A DNA stretch of 17,464 nt from a virus (taxonomy: Duplodnaviria > Heunggongvirae > Uroviricota > Caudoviricetes). Where the stretch lies: the IMG/VR virus record IMGVR_UViG_2778261165_000010; one strand, given 5' to 3'. The notes beneath the pieces were generated by a model. The model was not told where the DNA came from. It saw only the letters and a list, made by a program, of their open reading frames with translations, and searched no databases. Both the position numbers and the translations under genes were made by a program. Shown here in pieces: positions 10,318-17,292 of the stretch; positions within the stretch are counted from its first letter, which is position 1, and the number at the start of each line of letters is the position of its first letter.

Positions 10318-11628
10318 TTAAATCCGAAGTGATGTGACTCTTCCGGTCGGTTTGACAATAGGGAATTGCTTAACGATGAAATAACCTCCGGCATCATTCG
10401 GGTGATCATTGCCAGATTTTTTATCAGGCTCCCCCTTCTCATCCCAGACCTGTTGCTCCAGAGATTCGGCATATAACGGGCAACGCTTCACATTAACTTT
10501 ATAGCGACGCTCACCATTGGCATTGCAGAACATTGCATTCATTGAGTTAACGCGATCTTTTACTGGCGGGTTCGAGCTGTTCACCACAACGTTAAAACCA
10601 GCCTGCTTAAGCTGGGCTATATCCGTCGTACTTGCGTTACTTGATTTTCTGGAATCCCCGGAAGCATCTGGATAAATATAAATTTCCCTCACTTTCCGGT
10701 AATCATTCCCATCATACAGCCAGAAGCGTTCTTTAATGATGCGGATCATATCCGGCGTATCGTAGGCATTGATGATTTCAGTTACCGCACATGGAAGCCC
10801 CAAACGCAGCACATGGACGATTCCCGCCATCTTTCCAACGTTAAAATCCATCCCAATATAAATCGGCTCCCCTGGCTGCTCCACTTCTTCGCAATTATTC
10901 AGTTTCCGGTCAAACTGATGGTAAACAGTACCACTTGTCAGGTTAGTAAACTGTCCTCGAAGATAGGCTTTAATCAGCTCTGGAGGGTATGATTCAAGAA
11001 GCGAAGGAATGTAATCTGCTGGCAGGTTCTTTTCATTATCGAAAGTAGATGCCTGCACCAGACCATACAGTGAGGCCAGCTCTGTTTTTTCACGCACGGC
11101 TTTAACAAACTGCTCGTAGACAAATTTGAATCCTTCCGGCGTGGTTGTAACGTCAATACCGTTGCGAAGTCCATCAATCTTATAACGCATACGTGCAATT
11201 ATCTTGCGCCACGCCGTTCTGGCTTTTTCCTTCGGCAAAATGTCCAGTTCATCCACCAACGCATTACCAATTTTGAAACCGACGATCGTTTGTGGCTTCT
11301 CCATCGATCTGCAGATAGTGGTTCCCCGATACTGGCGTCCGTAATAAAAGTGAACCTCTTTATTTCCCTCATTAATTTTTACGTTCAATCCCCAGTCAGC
11401 AGCAACTTCTTCCACTGTAGGGTAAAAAATATCGCGAATTTGGGGATACGTTGGCGCAAAATATCCCTGATTTATACCTGGATGCTCCCAAATCCCCTTG
11501 CATATGCCGCCACACCCAACCCATGTTTTGCCCGAGCCAAAACCAGCAATATAGGCTTTAAATTTATGGGGCATTGAAAGAAATCGCGCCTGAGGCACAT
11601 TAAGCGTCGGAGAGATCATCTTCATCAC
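10318..11628 (-). CDS. terminase large subunit
   Basis: N-terminal Walker A-like GFGSGKT; acidic nuclease-type motifs in the C-terminal half; lies between the small terminase and portal genes. Start may be one of the Met codons at 11628, 11625 or 11619. Confidence 0.9.
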   Translation of the reverse strand: MMKMISPTLNVPQARFLSMPHKFKAYIAGFGSGKTWVGCGGICKGIWEHPGINQGYFAPTYPQIRDIFYPTVEEVAADWGLNVKINEGNKEVHFYYGRQYRGTTICRSMEKPQTIVGFKIGNALVDELDILPKEKARTAWRKIIARMRYKIDGLRNGIDVTTTPEGFKFVYEQFVKAVREKTELASLYGLVQASTFDNEKNLPADYIPSLLESYPPELIKAYLRGQFTNLTSGTVYHQFDRKLNNCEEVEQPGEPIYIGMDFNVGKMAGIVHVLRLGLPCAVTEIINAYDTPDMIRIIKERFWLYDGNDYRKVREIYIYPDASGDSRKSSNASTTDIAQLKQAGFNVVVNSSNPPVKDRVNSMNAMFCNANGERRYKVNVKRCPLYAESLEQQVWDEKGEPDKKSGNDHPNDAGGYFIVKQFPIVKPTGRVTSLRI

Positions 11629-12694
11629 TCCTTACTCTGGCATCAACCACATTAATATTGATCGCCACAGGCTGGGGATGTTCATTATCTTCCACCGTTT
11701 CGATCTCTTTGCGCAGCTTCTGGTTTTCCATTCTGCGCCGTTCAATTTCCAGTTCCTGTAGCCGTTTATCTGCACATAAAGCCCCGCCAGCAGAAAACAA
11801 ACGCAACAATTCACGCCGGGCGGCAGCCTTATCCTCCAGCAGGATCTCAACGCCGAATTTTCCGAATTTTGCCCCTGCATATAATTGCCGCGCATCCCCA
11901 TCAAGCAGAGTGGTATCAGCCATATAAAGCTGTCCCGTTCCCTCACCGCAGCACTTCGGGCAGTCCGGATTGGGTATGGCGTTATCAACAAAGCCGAGGC
12001 CTCCATATTCCGGTTCGGGTTTGCCATCTCTGGAAGCCTGCGCCGCTGCCTTGTCGAATTCTGCTATATCGCGCCACTGGTAGAGATGATTCTCGCCCCA
12101 GCAATAACGGCAGTTAACACGGCGAAATTGTGCAAGCTGATTGGGGTCGGCCAGGACAATAGCCATCAACTGACTCACTAGTAAATCCAGGTCTGCGGTA
12201 TAGCGTTTCTGGTACTGATTGCGGAAGTAGCTGATAGCGCGAAAAACCCTGGCATTTCTAAGCATACGACTGGCGTTGCTGTTAGCTGTCGCACCTTGCC
12301 CCTCATAACCGGCTAGTCGGTACGCCTCTGTCGGCTTTTTACCCTGAGCAACAAGCATCGCAAACTTAGCCTGCTGGTCAGAAATGCCGAATTCATCGGG
12401 ACAGAACGAAAATTCCTCCGCGTCGCCCTCATTCAGGCCCGCATCGAATACTGGCTTTTTTTCCTGAGATTTTTCGTTCCGCTTTTGTGCAGTCTGCGCA
12501 GATTTTTTCTGCGCACTTTTTTGCGCAGTTTTGCACATTTCTGTCTGCGCATTTTTCGGAGTTTTTTTGATGTAACGACGGGCTGTTGCGTAATTCAGTC
12601 CCCTTGCTTCACACCATGCCACCGGAGATATACCGGAGCGGGTGTATTCAGCAATATACTCCTGCTGCAACGCCCCCCAGTCCGGTCTGCTCAT
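11600..12694 (-). CDS. terminase small subunit (HTH, Terminase_2-like core, C-terminal 4-Cys ribbon)
   Basis: ATG at 12694 with AGGA ribosome-binding site. N-terminal HTH (ISPVAWCEARGLNYATARRYIKK); low-complexity KTAQKSAQKKSAQTAQKR linker; core FAMLVAQGKKPTEAYRLAGYEGQGATANSNASRMLRNARV typical of small terminases; CRYC...CPKCC cysteine cluster. Confidence 0.8.
   Translation of the reverse strand: MSRPDWGALQQEYIAEYTRSGISPVAWCEARGLNYATARRYIKKTPKNAQTEMCKTAQKSAQKKSAQTAQKRNEKSQEKKPVFDAGLNEGDAEEFSFCPDEFGISDQQAKFAMLVAQGKKPTEAYRLAGYEGQGATANSNASRMLRNARVFRAISYFRNQYQKRYTADLDLLVSQLMAIVLADPNQLAQFRRVNCRYCWGENHLYQWRDIAEFDKAAAQASRDGKPEPEYGGLGFVDNAIPNPDCPKCCGEGTGQLYMADTTLLDGDARQLYAGAKFGKFGVEILLEDKAAARRELLRLFSAGGALCADKRLQELEIERRRMENQKLRKEIETVEDNEHPQPVAININVVDARVRSDEDDLSDA
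12495..12551 (-). repeat. array of five TGCGCA/TGCACA motifs separated by T-tracts inside the 5' part of the small terminase gene
   Basis: Plus-strand motifs at 12495, 12510, 12522, 12532 and 12546, each followed by T4-6 runs; spacing 10-15 bp. Confidence 0.6.
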
Positions 12695-12697
12695 CAG

Positions 12698-12949
12698 TTA
12701 GTCCTGATTTTTATCCACCCTGAGTAGTTCGCGCAGAGCAAAGGCATCCCCTTTTCTGGCAAGCTTAAACAATGCCGCTCGTAACTCGGCTTCACCTTTC
12801 GCTCTGCCCTTACGGATGGCCGCATAAAAATCTGTCATTGCTTCCCGATTTTCTTTCAGTCGGTTCAGATCAACATCCAGAACGTCAGCGATTTGTTGTG
12901 CAGTCATCCGGCACGCTGCCAGAGACTCGACTTTCGAATACGGAATCAT
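12698..12949 (-). CDS. small hypothetical protein (83 aa), possible HTH DNA-binding protein
   Basis: ATG at 12949 with GGGGGTGA upstream; stop 3 nt before the small terminase ATG. Contains MTAQQIADVLDVDLNRL, which looks HTH-like. Overlaps the 3' end of the upstream gene by 65 nt. Confidence 0.5.
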   Translation of the reverse strand: MIPYSKVESLAACRMTAQQIADVLDVDLNRLKENREAMTDFYAAIRKGRAKGEAELRAALFKLARKGDAFALRELLRVDKNQD

Positions 12950-13817
12950 TTGTCACCCCCATTGATATGCAGGGTGTCTTCTTCCTGTATTTTTCGTGAA
13001 GGATTTTTACTGCAGCGTTGTTCCAGGTGACCTGATGGTGAATGCGTTTATGGCTGGCACCCATCAGTGAGATTTTTACGCACGACGGCGCATACATGAC
13101 GGAGTAAAAACTTTTAACGTAGGTTCCGGAATCCAGATACAGCTCGGTCATTCCGCCGCTGTTTTTCTGCGTCTGTTTCTGCCCTAACTGGACAGCACCG
13201 ATCGTCATAAACAATTCACCACAGCGACCGAGATTCGTGTACGTATTCACATCCTCGTTAATGCGCCCCATGAATGAGAACGGTCGATCAACCGAACAGA
13301 TAAAGCTGTTCATTGCCTTGCGTTTCACCCACGAAGCATGGCCGCCATTGTCACCAAGAAAATCCCCGCCCTGCGACATAGCGATGGAAAGAGCAGGTAT
13401 TGATTCGTAGTACGCCAGCATTTCAGAAAGGATCGCATCCAGTTTCCTTATCGGAAAATAGGCCTGGTCATAGTTGCGATCCACCCGAAACTGGAACTCG
13501 TGATAATCATCATCGAGCTGAATGAAGTATTTACACCCGACCAGTTTTGCCAGGTCGAAACAGGCATTACGGGCGTAAAAAATTGAGCGGCGGTCACAGA
13601 AATTATCGGCTTCGTCAAAACGACTGGCGATATCGGCTTTGGAAAACACCAGCACCTGTTCACCAAATTCAGCCATGTACTGATTTCGTGTCTTATCTTC
13701 ATCATCAACAACGATAAAAATTTTCCCGGTATAGCCAGCACGACGCAACGTCCGGTAAGTCAGAACTTTGTCCGGTCGCCCGTGAGTCAGAATAAAGGCG
13801 CAAAAATCATCACGCAT
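12885..13817 (-). CDS. hypothetical protein with GT-A-like glycosyltransferase features
   Basis: ATG at 13817 directly after a GGAGGAGGAGG ribosome-binding site, overlapping the upstream stop by 8 nt. N-terminus CAFILTHGRPDKVLTYRTLRRAGYTGKIFIVVDDED resembles the GT-A beta1-alpha1-beta2 'VVDDxx' pattern. A DxD-like IQLDDDYHE lies about 90 residues further on. No transmembrane segments. Confidence 0.45.
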   Translation of the reverse strand: MRDDFCAFILTHGRPDKVLTYRTLRRAGYTGKIFIVVDDEDKTRNQYMAEFGEQVLVFSKADIASRFDEADNFCDRRSIFYARNACFDLAKLVGCKYFIQLDDDYHEFQFRVDRNYDQAYFPIRKLDAILSEMLAYYESIPALSIAMSQGGDFLGDNGGHASWVKRKAMNSFICSVDRPFSFMGRINEDVNTYTNLGRCGELFMTIGAVQLGQKQTQKNSGGMTELYLDSGTYVKSFYSVMYAPSCVKISLMGASHKRIHHQVTWNNAAVKILHEKYRKKTPCISMGVTNDSVFESRVSGSVPDDCTTNR

Positions 13818-14601
13818 ATTCCTCCTCCTCACCACCATGCATGATCTCCACCATGCGCTGCGTCATCCGGACAAATCCATTTTCAATAGCCTGCTGATAA
13901 TCAATGATCACCAGCGCCGACTCCTCGAAAAAACACTGAATTTCAGAGGGGGCGTGAGCGTAATAGTCCGCAATTCTGCTGAAATTAAACACCGTGTGAC
14001 GTTCTGCCGCACACAGGAGGAATTTCTCAATATCAGGCTCAAGGGACGCCGAACGTATCCGGCTGATCAGCTCCTGAGTTTTCGTATCGTCGTACAGTTC
14101 ACTGATATCCGGTTTACCGCCCGACGGCTCATAAACAGGCGTATCAATTTTCGTCGTATACGGCTCCTCCTCATTTCCTGTACCGGGCAAAACATCCGTC
14201 AACAGTTCATCAATTTCTGTCGGGATGAAGCCTGTCAGGGAGACATCAAAATCAGCATTGATTAGGTCCGACAGCTCCATCCGCAACAGATCTTCATCCC
14301 AGCCAGCATTCATCGGCAGGCGATTATCTGCCAGGCGGTACGCCTTTTTCTGCTCATCCGTCAGGCCAGACAGAACAATGACCGGAACAGAATCCATTTT
14401 GAGCATTTCAGCCGCCATAACACGACCGTGACCCGCAATAATTTCGCCCTTTTCGTCAATCAGCACCGGATTAGTCCAGCCGAATTGCTTAATACTTTCT
14501 ACCAGTTGTGCCACCTGCTCAGGGCTGTGCGTCCTGGCGTTGTGCGCATACGGTGACAATTCTTGTAATGGGCGATAGACTATCTTTAATTTCTCGCTCA
14601 T
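13810..14601 (-). CDS. ParB N-terminal domain (ParB/Srx-like) protein
   Basis: ATG at 14601 with AAGG upstream. N-terminal KLKIVYRPLQELSPYAHNARTHSPEQVAQLVESIKQFGWTNPVLIDEKGEIIAGHGRVMAA matches the ParB/sulfiredoxin fold, with GHGR in place of the GERR arginine patch. C-terminal 170 aa unassigned; acidic tail GGEEEEYA. Confidence 0.7.
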   Translation of the reverse strand: MSEKLKIVYRPLQELSPYAHNARTHSPEQVAQLVESIKQFGWTNPVLIDEKGEIIAGHGRVMAAEMLKMDSVPVIVLSGLTDEQKKAYRLADNRLPMNAGWDEDLLRMELSDLINADFDVSLTGFIPTEIDELLTDVLPGTGNEEEPYTTKIDTPVYEPSGGKPDISELYDDTKTQELISRIRSASLEPDIEKFLLCAAERHTVFNFSRIADYYAHAPSEIQCFFEESALVIIDYQQAIENGFVRMTQRMVEIMHGGEEEEYA

Positions 14602-14738: not shown

Positions 14739-16214
14739 TTAGGAGCGCCAAAAAAAACCTGAAAACAATATAATAACAGGATAAATTTCAAGGCGACCAA
14801 GAATCATAGCTATGCACATTAAACATTTTGCAATGTCATTAAGCACTCCGAATGACGATGCAGTAGCCCCAAAACCTAATCCCATATTATTAATACATGC
14901 AGCCACTGTTGCAAATGATGTAAGAAAATCATATCCCATACCATTTAACACCAGTATAAAAAACACCGTGAAGAGAGTATAAAGAAAAAAGAAACTCCAT
15001 ACAGACCTCATTACACGATCTGTAACTATCTTCCCTCCTACATTTACACTCAACAACGCTCTGGGATGAGAAAGCTGATTTATCTCGTGTTTGCTTTGTT
15101 TGAAAAGTATAAGAAATCGAAGTGACTTAATTCCACCACAAGTTGAACCTATACATCCCCCAAAGAAACTTGACAACAGCAAAAACACTATCGTGTGCGT
15201 GGGCCAACTTGCATAATCCTGCGTAGCTAAACCATTATCAGTGAGCATGGAGCTGGCAAGAAAAAACGAATGAATAAAACTTCCATGCAAGTCATACATA
15301 CCTATATGCCAGACCTGGAAAGAGGTAACAATGATCACCCCTAAGGCTATTAACAGAAAGAAACGAAGTTCAATATCTCTGATTAAAGGTTTTATCGTTT
15401 TCCTGCTAATAACAATATACCAAAGAGTGAAGTTGAAAGCCGATAGCAGGGAAAAAGAACCAGCCACCAGCTCAACCAAATAGTTATTAAAATATCCGAT
15501 ACTCTCGCTATGAGTTGAGAAACCACCAAGCGAAACTGTGGAAATCCCGTGACAAATAGCATCAAACAAAGGCATTCCTGCAAGTCTATAACAGACAATA
15601 CAAGCAATACCTAATAAAGAATAAGTTATCCACAGTGTCCGTGACGTATCGGCCAGGCGGGGAGTGAGTTTGTCATCCTTAAATGGCCCCGGCATTTCTG
15701 ACTGATAAAGCTTTGCACCACCAATACCCAATAATGGCAATACAGCAACCGCCAGAACAATAACTCCTAAACCACCTATAAAATTTAACTGTGACCGATA
15801 GTACAAATATGCCCGAGGTAATGAACTAACATCATCAATTACAGTTGCTCCTGTTGTTGTTATTCCAGAAACCCCTTCAAACAGAGCATCAATGAACGTT
15901 AAATTAAGTTCTGAGTCAATCCATAAAGGGAATGCACTAATAACAGAAAACAAAATCCAAAACATTACAATTATAATAAACCCATCACGGGTACGTAATT
16001 GAATGCCAGATTTCTTAGTTGTATACCACGCTCCGCCACCAATGCAAAAAAATATAACGAAAGTTATAAAGAAAACGAACAGGCTTTTTTCTTTATAAAA
16101 CAATGCTACAACCATTGGTGGCAACATTGAAAGACTATAGAGCCAAACCAGGAACCCACACATATGAGTAACAACTCTTACATGAGATGTATTCATATCT
16201 AAATATTCTTTCAA
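14739..16214 (-). CDS. trkG: TrkH/TrkG-family potassium uptake membrane protein
   Basis: Polytopic membrane protein with repeated Gly-rich selectivity-filter-like segments (GVSGITTTGATV, IGGLGVIVLAV, STVSLGGFST, GSTCGGIK). From memory it matches E. coli TrkG, which is prophage-borne in K-12. Markedly AT-rich compared with its neighbours. The true start may be Met7 at 16196 (MNTSHVRVV..). Confidence 0.88.
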   Translation of the reverse strand: MKEYLDMNTSHVRVVTHMCGFLVWLYSLSMLPPMVVALFYKEKSLFVFFITFVIFFCIGGGAWYTTKKSGIQLRTRDGFIIIVMFWILFSVISAFPLWIDSELNLTFIDALFEGVSGITTTGATVIDDVSSLPRAYLYYRSQLNFIGGLGVIVLAVAVLPLLGIGGAKLYQSEMPGPFKDDKLTPRLADTSRTLWITYSLLGIACIVCYRLAGMPLFDAICHGISTVSLGGFSTHSESIGYFNNYLVELVAGSFSLLSAFNFTLWYIVISRKTIKPLIRDIELRFFLLIALGVIIVTSFQVWHIGMYDLHGSFIHSFFLASSMLTDNGLATQDYASWPTHTIVFLLLSSFFGGCIGSTCGGIKSLRFLILFKQSKHEINQLSHPRALLSVNVGGKIVTDRVMRSVWSFFFLYTLFTVFFILVLNGMGYDFLTSFATVAACINNMGLGFGATASSFGVLNDIAKCLMCIAMILGRLEIYPVIILFSGFFWRS

Positions 16215-16333: not shown

Positions 16334-16798
16334 TTACTTTAAACACTGCTCGGTTATGTATTGCTGAGCACCTTCAAGTTGGGCCTGCATCATTACCAGT
16401 CGTTCCCGGAGGGTGAAATAATCCCGTTCAGCGGTGTCTGCCAGTCGGGGGGAGGCTGCATTATCCACGCCGGAGGCGGTGGTGGCTTCACGCACTGACT
16501 GACAGACTGCTTTGATGTGCAACCGACGACGACCAACGGCAACATCATCACGCAGAACATCATTTTCAGCTTTCGCATCAGCTAACTCCTTCGTGTATTT
16601 TGCATCGAGCGCAGCAACATCACGCTGACGCATCTGCATGTCAGTAATTGCCGCGTTCGCCAGCTTCAGTTCTCTGGCATTTTTGTCGCGCTGTTCTTTG
16701 TAGGCGATGGCGTTATCACGGTAATGATTAACACCCCATGACAGGCAGACGACGATGCAGATAACCAGAGCGGAGATAATCGCGGTTACTCTGTTCAT
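16334..16798 (-). CDS. Rz i-spanin
   Basis: ATG at 16798 overlaps the endolysin stop as ATGA. N-terminal transmembrane segment ([18 protein letters not shown]) followed by a coiled-coil periplasmic domain. The track ORF starts 4 codons upstream. Confidence 0.85.
16393..16578 (-). CDS. Rz1 o-spanin lipoprotein, embedded in Rz in the +1 frame
   Basis: [20 protein letters not shown]: signal peptide with lipobox and Cys, then a proline-rich mature region ([18 protein letters not shown]). Entirely inside the Rz gene in a different frame. Confidence 0.85.
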
Positions 16799-17292
16799 TG
16801 CTGACCCCACAAACAGATTTCACGCTCAATCTCACGACGAGTCATGAGACCTTTCCATTGCTTACCGCCAGCATATGTCCAGCGACGTAGCTGATCACAT
16901 GCGCCTTTGATATCGCCCTGGTTTATTTTGCGAAGAAGCGTCGATGTTCTGAAATTGCCAGCACCCACGTTGTAAACGAATGAGTAAAGAGCGCCGCGCG
17001 TTGTTTCCGGTATATCGACTTTGATGTACGGGTTAATTTGTCTGGCGACCGTGGCAAGGTCTTTATTCAGGAGGGCTTTGCATTCTGCTTTGGTATACGT
17101 TTTACCGAGCATGATGTCTTTTCCTGTATGCCCGTGACATACAGTCCATACACCAACAATATCTTTGTATGGTATGTAGCTGACACCTTCCAGACCATCG
17201 TTACCACTTGGGCCAGTGATTAACACTGATGCTATAGCAATTGCTCCGCCACCAATAGCAGCAGCAACGACTTTTCGTAATGATGGAGGCAT
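16795..17292 (-). CDS. SAR endolysin (phage 21 R-type lysozyme)
   Basis: 165 aa with an N-terminal Gly/Ala-rich signal-anchor-release segment ([20 protein letters not shown]). From memory it is near-identical to E. coli cryptic-prophage lysozyme RrrD. ATG at 17292 with GAGAGGTGA ribosome-binding site. Confidence 0.9.

What the first reader, a model, noticed from the sequence alone, without database searches (positions are those of the whole stretch)
12440..12560. Phased TGCGCA / T-tract repeat array inside the small terminase gene: candidate pac or bent-DNA site
Five TGCGCA-like motifs alternate with T4-6 runs at roughly helical spacing. They lie in the region encoding the low-complexity KTAQKSAQ linker of the small terminase. 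pac-type phages often place their packaging recognition site inside the small terminase gene, and phased A/T tracts produce intrinsic bends that the small terminase could bind.
Basis: inference. Interest (0 to 1): 0.4.

Follow-up and report, generated by a model that had tools for sequence, protein, structure and literature searches.

The report
P1-type packaging site in Rac terminase gene
A cluster of TGCGCA hexamers inside the small-terminase gene of an intact E. coli Rac prophage is conserved as DNA rather than as protein and matches the layout of the phage P1 packaging (pac) site, so it is most likely where this phage's terminase recognises its own DNA.

Summary
The repeat is real, but it is not helically phased. 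There are four exact TGCGCA hexamers (+ strand 12495, 12510, 12522, 12546) and two one-mismatch copies (12486, 12532), alternating with T runs at a 12-bp (four-codon) period.

They lie in terS (11600-12694, minus strand), in the DNA that encodes a disordered Lys-rich linker just after a 45-residue N-terminal three-helix domain.

The constraint is on the DNA:
- Across 137 distinct homologous genes the hexamer occurs in all three reading frames (436/109/30).
- xAQ tripeptides are encoded T-GCG-CA in 92% of linker cases, against 8% elsewhere in the same genes.
- Synonymous-codon randomisation gives P about 5e-5.

The N-terminal domain is homologous to the N-terminus of P1 PacA (hhalign 97.6%). 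In P1 the experimentally mapped pac site is TGATCA/G hexamers at the same place in pacA.

Hexamer identity co-varies with helix-3 residue 39: Arg goes with TGCGCA and Lys with TGCGAA (108 vs 20 genes, no exceptions). 933W carries GATCA hexamers at the same position.

Verdict: this is very probably a P1-type pac recognition array with a new hexamer. It has no Dam site and no second arm, and it is grafted onto an SF6-type TerS. The A-tract bending idea is not supported. No packaging experiment exists for this phage.

The parts
12546..12551 (.). Hexamer 1, exact TGCGCA (terS nt 144-149; codons aaT GCG CAg = N-A-Q)
12532..12537 (.). Hexamer 2, degenerate here: TGCACA on the + strand, TGTGCA on the coding strand (terS nt 158-163, aTG TGC Aaa = M-C-K). 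Most close relatives have the exact TGCGCA in a different reading frame (aTG CGC Aaa = M-R-K).
12522..12527 (.). Hexamer 3, exact TGCGCA (terS nt 168-173; T-A-Q)
12510..12515 (.). Hexamer 4, exact TGCGCA (terS nt 180-185; S-A-Q)
12495..12500 (.). Hexamer 5, exact TGCGCA (terS nt 195-200; S-A-Q)
12486..12491 (.). Hexamer 6, degenerate here: TGTGCA on the + strand, acT GCA CAa on the coding strand (terS nt 204-209). It is an exact TGCGCA in about a third of close relatives.
12456..12568 (+). Eight T runs of 4-7 bases, which are AAA/AAG Lys codons on the coding strand. They interleave with the hexamers at a 12-bp period.
12560..12694 (-). Coding sequence for TerS residues 1-45. This is a three-helix N-terminal domain homologous to the N-terminus of P1/D6 PacA, and the proposed reader of the hexamers. 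Helix 3 is Y-A-T-A-R-R-Y-I-K-K.
12395..12559 (-). Coding sequence for TerS residues 46-100, a Lys-rich linker that is predicted to be disordered. Its first half is the hexamer array. The second half is the most variable part of the 5' region among relatives.
12215..12394 (-). Coding sequence for TerS residues ~101-160, a second helix-turn-helix domain. It matches the DNA-binding domain of the Bacillus phage SF6 small terminase G1P (PDB 3ZQP, 4ZC3, 2CMP).
11600..12694 (-). terS, the small terminase subunit (364 aa; Pfam Terminase_2, PHROG 51)
10318..11628 (-). terL, the large terminase subunit (436 aa; Terminase_6N and 6C). This is the nuclease/ATPase that would cut near the array.

Best explanation
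The TGCGCA array is the recognition part of the packaging (pac) site of an intact Rac-type prophage, built on the plan of the phage P1 pac site.

Proposed mechanism:
1. TerS carries an extra N-terminal three-helix domain (residues 1-45) of the PacA type. This step is shown.
2. Each copy of this domain in the TerS oligomer reads one TGCGCA hexamer through helix 3. Arg39 is the specificity-determining contact. This step is inferred.
3. The hexamers lie about 12 bp apart in the DNA that encodes the flexible linker right after that domain. Several domains of one TerS ring can therefore load cooperatively on phage concatemers and on no other DNA.
4. The SF6-type HTH and ring core hold the DNA and recruit TerL.
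5. TerL cuts nearby. By analogy with P1 the cut would be some tens of bp downstream, in the variable spacer.
6. Headful packaging then runs in the direction of terS transcription, towards lower window coordinates.

What is shown: the DNA-level conservation, the co-variation with the helix, the homology to PacA and to the P1 pac layout, and the headful-type relatives. What is inferred: binding, cleavage position and packaging direction.
For: 1. The clustering is non-random. Four exact copies lie in 57 bp; 0 of 300 simulations reach this. It is the only cluster in 49.7 kb of the same prophage.

2. The constraint is on DNA, not peptide.
- Given the linker peptide, synonymous randomisation with the window's own codon usage yields four or more TGCGCA in 1 of 20,000 trials.
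- In 117 intact TGCGCA-class genes, xAQ is encoded T-GCG-CA in 436/475 linker cases, against 17/207 outside residues 41-140.
- Across 137 distinct genes from E. coli, Klebsiella, Enterobacter, Citrobacter, Pantoea, Proteus, Providencia, Xenorhabdus, Aeromonas and Vibrio, 575 linker hexamers fall in frame 2 (436, xAQ/xAH), frame 1 (109, [MVL]R[KTN]) and frame 0 (30, CAx).
- A frameshifted copy keeps five hexamers.

3. Homology to an experimentally mapped site.
- The N-domain profile matches the P1/D6 PacA N-terminus: hhalign probability 97.6%, E 3e-12.
- In P1, TGATCA/G hexamers lie at pacA nt 194-228 and 324-375 and flank the annotated cleavage points.
- Recoding the P1 hexamers synonymously lowers P1 packaging (PMC10028697).
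- In this window the hexamers lie at terS nt 144-209.

4. Specificity co-variation.
- Helix-3 A-R-R goes with TGCGCA in 108 genes and A-K-R with TGCGAA(T) in 20, with no exceptions.
- Residue 39 is the only perfectly discriminating position.
- 933W (T-A-R-T-R) has four [CT]GATCA hexamers at exact 12-bp spacing.
- Phage pPE4 has an 83%-identical core with a different N-domain, and carries GTGGAAAC/GTTTCCAC repeats instead.

5. Rac-SA53 terS has lost the N-domain by deletion, and three of its hexamers carry point mutations.

6. Headful context.
- TerL is 51% identical to that of Ro145clw, which PhageTerm calls headful with a pac site.
- 933W is terminally redundant and a generalised transducer.
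- The TerS core matches the pac-phage SF6 G1P.

7. The AF2 model shows residues 1-44 as three helices (pLDDT 73-81), residues 45-95 disordered, and residues 100-160 helical.
Against: - There is no experimental packaging, binding or terminus data for this phage or any TGCGCA-class relative. The GenBank 'phage' records nearest to it are in-silico prophage calls.
- The window lineage lacks the second (right) hexamer arm that P1 and the Klebsiella-type relatives have.
- It lacks a consensus IHF site.
- TGCGCA has no GATC, so the P1 Dam control cannot apply.
- Two of the six hexamers are degenerate in this particular copy. The prophage may be drifting.
- The HTH and the array are physically adjacent, so part of their perfect co-occurrence reflects linkage and shared ancestry rather than independent events.
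- Within the Rac lineage, polymorphism in hexamer positions (0.040) is only slightly lower than in the inter-hexamer linker (0.057).
Confidence: 0.75

Rival explanations
1. The array is a binding site for the TerS N-domain (or another protein), but it serves autoregulation or another non-packaging role, such as repression or attenuation of terS-terL expression. The true pac signal would lie elsewhere.
For: - The DNA-level conservation and the HTH co-variation show a protein-DNA interaction, not its purpose.
- The site lies inside the gene it could regulate.
- The window lineage lacks the second arm and the IHF site of P1 pac.
Against: - The homologous array in P1 is the mapped pac site.
- TerS is the pac-recognition subunit in the known systems.
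- No other repeated element was seen in or upstream of terS.
Confidence: 0.1
2. The DNA repeat is only the shadow of a low-complexity [KTS]AQK peptide repeat: a flexible or basic linker encoded with common codons.
For: - The motif sits in a Lys/Ala/Gln-rich linker.
- GCG, CAG and AAA are common E. coli codons.
- The spacings of the exact copies are multiples of three.
Against: - Synonymous randomisation gives P about 5e-5.
- T-GCG-CA usage is 92% in the linker against 8% elsewhere.
- The hexamer is kept in three reading frames encoding unrelated tripeptides, and in a frameshifted copy.
- The peptide varies (TAQ, SAQ, NAQ, PAQ, MRK, LRT, CAE) while the hexamer does not.
Confidence: 0.04
3. Phased A/T tracts make an intrinsically bent DNA segment, and the bend rather than the hexamers is what the terminase uses.
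For: Eight T runs lie in 113 bp. Bent DNA is part of the SPP1 and P1 pac models (general knowledge; the P1 bend is mentioned in PMC10028697).
Against: - There is no 10-11-bp periodicity. R(10.5) is 0.21 and the AA/TT power is unremarkable; the period is 12 bp.
- Spacing is not conserved among relatives: 7, 9, 10, 12, 14 and 16 bp are all common.
- Relatives with few Lys codons (Aeromonas, Pantoea) keep the hexamers without the A tracts.
Confidence: 0.04
4. The array is a neutral product of replication slippage, or a hairpin / antisense terminator formed by the palindromic hexamers.
For: - Tandem Repeats Finder reports weak 12- and 15-bp tandem units.
- TGCGCAGA-TTTTT-TCTGCGCA followed by a T run scores as a terminator-like site on the + strand.
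Against: - The array is conserved across proteins only 36-45% identical, from many genera, with irregular spacing.
- The hairpin is not conserved, because the spacing varies.
- No + strand gene lies here for a terminator to serve.
Confidence: 0.03

Closest known systems
Phage P1 pac site and PacA (pacase small subunit)
   Same: - The site lies inside the small-terminase gene, in the DNA just after the N-terminal HTH.
- It is made of several copies of a T-G-N-N-C-A hexamer spaced about 7-15 bp apart.
- The N-terminal domain is homologous (hhalign 97.6%).
- Gene positions are similar: P1 nt 194-228, here nt 144-209.
   Different: - The hexamer is TGCGCA, not TGATCA/G, so there is no GATC and no Dam control.
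- There is only one arm in this lineage; P1 has 4+3 (the P1 sequence shows TGATCA x4, then TGATCG, TGATCA x2 and TGATCG).
- No consensus IHF site was found.
- The rest of TerS is SF6/Terminase_2 type, not PacA type.
- TerL is unrelated to PacB by BLASTP.
Stx phage 933W small terminase
   Same: It has the same N-terminal domain family (tblastn 40% identity over 43 aa). A hexamer array sits directly after it, with a 12-bp period. 933W is terminally redundant and a generalised transducer.
   Different: The hexamers are [CT]GATCA (Dam sites, as in P1) encoding IDHEIDHKTDHEIDH. Helix 3 reads T-A-R-T-R-I-K-M. The protein is shorter (268 aa). I found no published pac mapping for 933W.
Bacillus phages SPP1/SF6: G1P small terminase and its pac site
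   Same: The TerS core and its HTH DNA-binding domain match SF6 G1P (PDB 3ZQP E 1e-8; 4ZC3; 2CMP; Pfam Terminase_2). In those phages pac lies in the 5' part of the TerS gene, and they package by headful (general knowledge).
   Different: SF6/SPP1 G1P has no PacA-like extra domain and no hexamer array. Their pac uses different repeated boxes with intrinsically bent DNA (general knowledge, not tested here).
Lambda cosB R sites bound by gpNu1
   Same: Several copies of a short site are read by the N-terminal (winged) HTH of the small terminase, next to the cutting site (general knowledge).
   Different: Lambda is a cos system with 16-bp R elements that lie outside the Nu1 coding sequence and with an IHF site. 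There is no sequence relationship.
P22 / Sf6 pac sites
   Same: The pac site is embedded in the small-terminase gene of a headful phage (P22 pac sequence quoted in PMC11260489).
   Different: P22 has a single asymmetric ~22-bp site in the middle of gene 3, not a hexamer array. Its TerS fold has no defined HTH domain.

Membership tests
P1-type pac site (hexamer array in pacA) | The site lies within the 5' part of the small-terminase gene, downstream of the N-terminal HTH coding region | tested here: met
   Hexamers lie at terS nt 144-209; in P1 they lie at pacA nt 194-228
P1-type pac site (hexamer array in pacA) | Multiple copies of one hexanucleotide (P1: TGATCA/G) | tested here: met
   There are four exact and two near copies of TGCGCA. 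The form T-G-N-N-C-A is the same but the central dinucleotide differs.
P1-type pac site (hexamer array in pacA) | The small subunit has a PacA-type N-terminal domain | tested here: met
   hhalign probability 97.6%, E 3.2e-12 over 40 columns
P1-type pac site (hexamer array in pacA) | Two hexamer arms flank the cleavage region | tested here: not met
   The window lineage has only the left arm; its next TGCGCA is at nt 980. Klebsiella-type relatives do have a right arm at nt 348/360/386.
P1-type pac site (hexamer array in pacA) | The hexamers contain GATC, so cleavage is controlled by Dam methylation | tested here: not met
   TGCGCA has no GATC. 933W-type relatives keep GATC.
P1-type pac site (hexamer array in pacA) | An IHF binding site lies next to the cleavage site | tested here: not met
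   No WATCARNNNNTTR match anywhere in 12000-13000. This was a consensus scan only.
P1-type pac site (hexamer array in pacA) | A PacB-type large subunit | tested here: not met
   BLASTP of TerL against P1 PacB gave a best E of 0.82
P1-type pac site (hexamer array in pacA) | The terminase binds and cuts at the site, and packaging starts there | not testable with these tools
   This needs virion DNA termini, EMSA/footprinting or recoding experiments
SF6/SPP1-type small terminase (Pfam Terminase_2) | A Terminase_2 profile match and a G1P-like HTH DNA-binding domain | tested here: met
   PF03592 scores 34.5 bits against a cut-off of 26.1. PDB 3ZQP, 4ZC3 and 2CMP match residues ~103-180.
Headful (pac) packaging phages | The large terminase groups with phages known or predicted to package by headful | tested here: met
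   TerL is 51% identical to Kagunavirus Ro145clw, which PhageTerm calls headful with pac (PMC6627115), and 40-44% to Jersey- and Dhillon-type phages
Headful (pac) packaging phages | A terminally redundant, circularly permuted virion chromosome | not testable with these tools
   No virion sequence data exist. The nearest GenBank records are in-silico prophages.
Intrinsically bent DNA from phased A tracts | A/T tracts repeat in phase with the helical turn (10-11 bp) | tested here: not met
   R(10.5 bp) is 0.21 against a null mean of 0.31, and R(12 bp) is 0.83. AA/TT power at 10.5 bp is at the 74th percentile and at 12 bp the 100th.

The most novel reading that the evidence does not exclude
On this reading:
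- The cassette is widespread in Enterobacterales, Aeromonas and Vibrio prophages, and P1 pac is just its one studied member.
- It has been joined to different TerS cores: SF6/Terminase_2-type, 933W-type and a short 235-aa type.
- It exists in at least four specificity classes: TGATCA, TGCGCA, TGCGAAT and, with a different N-domain, GTGGAAAC.
- A single helix-3 residue (Arg39 vs Lys39) tracks the TGCGCA vs TGCGAA switch.

If true, it would allow pac sites, and hence the start points of lateral transduction, to be read from sequence for Rac prophages (16% of complete E. coli genomes) and for Stx phages.
Probability: 0.55. Interest if true: 0.7.

Novelty: new variant of a known kind. Interest (0 to 1): 0.6.

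Why it matters
Few pac sites have been mapped, and they are hard to predict from sequence. This analysis gives three things.

- **A predicted pac site for the intact Rac prophage.** Its terS 5' region is present in 883 of 5,426 complete E. coli genomes. By extension it predicts pac sites for Stx phages of the 933W type and for many Klebsiella, Enterobacter, Proteus and Yersinia prophages.
- **A simple recognition code.** Arg39 goes with TGCGCA and Lys39 with TGCGAA, and this can be tested with a few mutants.
- **An example of a binding site co-encoded with the linker of its own reader.** This explains how packaging specificity can move between phages in a single recombination event.

Knowing where and in which direction packaging starts also tells which flanking host genes a resident prophage would mobilise by lateral transduction. 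The full-text searches I ran found no description of a TGCGCA pac site or of P1-type arrays outside P1. The library does not cover subscription journals, so prior description cannot be excluded.

Tried and rejected
- **Within-lineage polymorphism** (31 distinct Rac-type sequences). Hexamer positions are only slightly less variable than the inter-hexamer linker (0.040 vs 0.057), and indels blur the alignment. The test is not discriminating.
- **IHF consensus scan.** No site was found near terS.
- **PDB sequence search with the N-domain profile.** Nothing significant was found, so the fold assignment rests on the AF2 model and on homology to PacA.
- **AF2 model.** Only residues 1-44 and 100-160 are confident, and the core is poor (mean pLDDT 49) because the alignment is shallow. 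No fold search was run on it.
- **GenBank phage records as evidence for termini.** ON4705xx are in-silico prophage predictions. SPF_0923 contains host genes. Neither gives termini.
- **Search for a second (right) hexamer arm in the window lineage.** None was found.
- **Clustering of C-terminal cores by single-linkage BLAST.** It merged most types, so I claim only that both hexamer classes occur in at least two unlinked core groups.
- **Literature searches** for a TGCGCA pac site, a 933W pac site, P1-like pac elsewhere, and the Yersinia phage termini found nothing relevant.
- Searches were script errors or time-outs. One search was a search-term error.
Full report
**Context.** All long ORFs of the window are on the minus strand and form the late region of a lambdoid prophage. 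In order they are:
- endolysin (16795-17292) and Rz spanin (16334-16810);
- a TrkG-type K+ transporter (14739-16214);
- a ParB_N protein (13810-14601) and a TAGT glycosyltransferase (12885-13838);
- an 83-aa ORF (12698-12949);
- small terminase TerS (11600-12694, 364 aa, Pfam Terminase_2, PHROG 51) and large terminase TerL (10318-11628);
- portal, Mu-F-like protein, scaffold, P22-type coat, tail tube and tape measure.

Records that are 99.6-99.8% identical show the full element. It has an integrase next to ttcA, then ydaQ, ralR, recT, recE, racC, kil and racR. This is an intact Rac prophage. The 5' region of terS is present in 883 of 5,426 complete E. coli genomes.

**The observation.**
- On the + strand, exact TGCGCA starts at 12495, 12510, 12522 and 12546. 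One-mismatch copies lie at 12486 (TGTGCA) and 12532 (TGCACA).
- T runs of 4-7 bases lie between the hexamers.
- The window has 10 TGCGCA in all. Four in 60 bp was never reached in 300 Markov-1 simulations. In 49.7 kb of the same prophage no other pair lies within 80 bp.
- The claimed helical phasing is wrong. Spacings are 9, 15, 12, 10 and 14 bp. Phase coherence (resultant length of the positions at a given period) is 0.09-0.21 at 10.5 bp, below random, and 0.81-0.83 at 12 bp. AA/TT power at 12 bp is the highest in the window.
- On the coding strand the array reads aaT GCG CAg, aTG TGC Aaa, acT GCG CAa, agT GCG CAg, tcT GCG CAg and acT GCA CAa. The T runs are AAA Lys codons.

**DNA or peptide?** Four tests say DNA.
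1. Randomising synonymous codons of the linker peptide with the window's own codon usage gives four or more TGCGCA in 1 of 20,000 trials.
2. Homologues only 36-45% identical in protein keep the hexamer, and in other reading frames. They come from Klebsiella prophage-derived phages, E. coli phage PHB10 and Aeromonas phiARM81mr. In Klebsiella phage ST11-VIM1phi8.2 the hexamers are at gene nt 138, 147, 159, 173, 180 and 196. They encode TAQ, TAQ, PAQ, LRT, TAQ and CAE.
3. I collected 137 distinct genes from IMG/VR contigs and from one genome per species. They cover Escherichia, Klebsiella, Raoultella, Enterobacter, Citrobacter, Pantoea, Tatumella, Xenorhabdus, Providencia, Proteus, Morganella, Serratia, Erwinia, Vibrio and others. 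The 575 linker hexamers fall in frame 2 (436), frame 1 (109) and frame 0 (30). All frames share an A-rich flank, A-A-n-TGCGCA-r-a.
4. As an internal control, xAQ tripeptides are spelled T-GCG-CA in 436 of 475 cases in the linker, but in only 17 of 207 outside residues 41-140 of the same genes.

Most close relatives of the window have aTG CGC Aaa (Met-Arg-Lys), an exact TGCGCA, where the window has aTG TGC Aaa. So the window copy carries a C-to-T change in one hexamer. Relatives carry 4-6 exact copies. A frameshifted copy (L035) still has five.

**Who reads it?**
- TerS residues 1-45 form a separate small domain. AF2 models it as three helices with pLDDT 73-81, followed by a disordered stretch (45-95, pLDDT below 50) and a second helical domain (100-160, pLDDT 78-87).
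- The second domain and the start of the core match the SF6 G1P small terminase, including its HTH DNA-binding domain (PDB 3ZQP E 1e-8; 4ZC3; 2CMP). The first domain plus linker is therefore an add-on to a complete SF6-type TerS.
- A profile of the add-on domain matches the N-terminus of P1 and D6 PacA: hhalign probability 97.6%, E 3e-12. The alignment pairs '...GLNYATARRYIKK' with '...NLNPNTARRYLRA'.
- In the P1 record, pacA carries TGATCA at nt 194, 201, 213 and 228, and TGATCG/TGATCA at 324, 336, 347 and 375. The annotated IHF site and pac cleavage points lie between them, at nt 256-285.
- A paper in the library describes the 161-bp P1 pac with seven TGATCA/G repeats bound by pacase. It shows that synonymous recoding of the repeats lowers P1 packaging about nine-fold (PMC10028697).
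- The window's array (nt 144-209) therefore occupies the position of the P1 left arm. Klebsiella-type relatives also have a right arm of three hexamers at nt 348-386. The window lineage does not.

**Co-variation.**
- Among the 137 genes, helix 3 with A-R-R always goes with TGCGCA (108 genes) and A-K-R always with TGCGAA(T) (20 genes). The only A-R-R genes without an array are four truncated pseudogenes.
- Residue 39 is the only position of the domain that separates the two classes perfectly. Residue 44 nearly does: K versus V/I/A/T.
- 933W TerS (helix T-A-R-T-R-I-K-M) has four [CT]GATCA at nt 141, 153, 165 and 177, encoding IDHEIDHKTDHEIDH.
- Two natural experiments fit. Actinobacillus phage pPE4 has an 83%-identical core but a different N-domain, and its linker DNA carries GTGGAAAC/GTTTCCAC repeats instead. 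Rac-SA53 terS is annotated as a fusion by deletion. It has lost the N-domain, and three of its hexamers carry point mutations (TTCGCA, TGCGCT, TGCCCA).
- A caveat applies. The domain and the array are adjacent, so linkage and common descent inflate these counts. Both classes do occur in at least two unlinked groups of C-terminal cores.

**Packaging mode.**
- TerL has Terminase_6N and 6C domains.
- It is 51% identical to Kagunavirus TerL. Phage Ro145clw of that group was called headful with a pac site by PhageTerm (PMC6627115).
- 933W has a terminally redundant chromosome and is a generalised transducer (PMC3752737).
- TerL shows no BLASTP similarity to P1 PacB. Only the N-terminal TerS module is shared with P1.

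**Mechanism proposed.** Several PacA-type domains of one TerS oligomer bind the hexamers, which are spaced about 12 bp apart. The flexible linkers allow for the irregular spacing seen among relatives: 7, 9, 10, 12, 14 and 16 bp are all common. The SF6-type HTH and ring hold the DNA and bring in TerL. TerL then cuts nearby and starts headful packaging. By analogy with P1 (my recollection of the P1 literature, not tested here), the cut would lie some tens of bp downstream in the variable spacer. Packaging would run in the direction of terS transcription, towards lower window coordinates and, in an unexcised prophage, into the host DNA beyond the tail genes. Because TGCGCA has no GATC, the Dam switch of P1 cannot operate here. 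The loss of a G:C pair at hexamer position 5 in the Lys39 class suggests that Arg39 contacts that guanine. This last point is inference.

**Rivals.**
- A pure peptide repeat is excluded by the frame and codon tests.
- Intrinsic bending by phased A tracts is not supported.
- Slippage or a hairpin/terminator is not conserved. The + strand terminator-like hits come from the palindromic hexamers.
- The one serious alternative is that the array is a TerS operator with a regulatory rather than a packaging role. The P1 precedent argues against it, but only experiments can settle it.

**Novelty.** The layout is that of P1 pac, so the kind is known. The hexamer, the missing second arm, the absence of a Dam site and an IHF site, the fusion to an SF6-type TerS, and the wide distribution with a residue-to-hexamer code were not found in the literature I could search. 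I rate it a new variant of a known kind, with interest 0.6.

Noticed in passing
window 12698-12949 (-): An 83-aa ORF ends 3 nt before terS. It starts like an HTH (MTAQQIADVLDVDLNRL) and matches the middle of a different small-terminase family (phrog_309 positions 145-218 of 319, E 8e-23). It has no Pfam hit. It could be a remnant of a displaced terS or a small packaging accessory protein.
   Followed up: partly
window 12885-13838 (-) and 13810-14601 (-): A TET-associated glycosyltransferase (TAGT, PF20691, E 8e-35) and a ParB_N-domain protein sit directly upstream of the terminase genes. The window shows no TET/JBP dioxygenase or DNA methyltransferase. This may be a DNA-modification module or a remnant of one.
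   Followed up: no
window 11951-12112 (-), TerS residues 195-248: The TerS core carries CxxC (195-198) and CxxC (245-248), invariant in homologues only 36-45% identical in protein. This looks like a zinc-ribbon insert that the SF6 G1P structure match does not cover.
   Followed up: no
window 12532-12537: The window's copy has ATG TGC AAA (Met-Cys-Lys) where most relatives have ATG CGC AAA (Met-Arg-Lys). This single C-to-T change destroys one hexamer. Copy number ranges from 4 to 6 among Rac-type relatives.
   Followed up: yes
L002/L004/L007 gene nt 348-398 (Klebsiella phages): Klebsiella-type relatives have a second cluster of three TGCGCA about 165 bp downstream of the first, inside the coding region of the SF6-type HTH. 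This gives a two-arm layout like P1 pac. The Rac lineage lacks it.
   Followed up: partly
L173 (Escherichia phage Rac-SA53, KU052037) 126-2379: Rac-SA53 carries the heat-labile enterotoxin IIa genes where this window has trkG/parB/TAGT. Its terS is annotated as a fusion by deletion, lacks the PacA-type domain and has a decayed hexamer array.
   Followed up: partly
L174 (Actinobacillus phage vB_Apl-pPE4, PP818812) 1231-2322: This phage has the same TerS core (83% identity) with a different N-terminal domain. Its linker DNA carries about six GTGGAAAC/GTTTCCAC-type repeats, apparently another specificity cassette of the same design.
   Followed up: partly
L171 (Salmonella phage SPF_0923, ON032529) 28143-35262: This 'complete genome' consists of Rac late genes followed by host genes (sitABCD, uspF, ompN, pyruvate-flavodoxin oxidoreductase). 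It has no early genes. It may be a mis-called prophage fragment, or DNA packaged in situ from the prophage. How the record was obtained was not established.
   Followed up: no
window 12484-12515 (+): The palindromic hexamers plus T runs form hairpins (for example TGCGCAGA-TTTTT-TCTGCGCA followed by CTTTTTTG) that score as terminator-like on the + strand, antisense to terS. The spacing is not conserved among relatives, so this is probably a by-product.
   Followed up: partly
window 14739-16214 (-): A TrkG-type potassium transporter gene lies between the lysis and packaging genes. It is the hallmark moron of Rac prophages.
   Followed up: no
L035 (IMG/VR contig) gene nt 1-267: One relative has a frameshift at an A run at the start of the linker, giving an 88-aa product. 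All five hexamers are still intact. This could be a sequencing error or a recent pseudogene.
   Followed up: no
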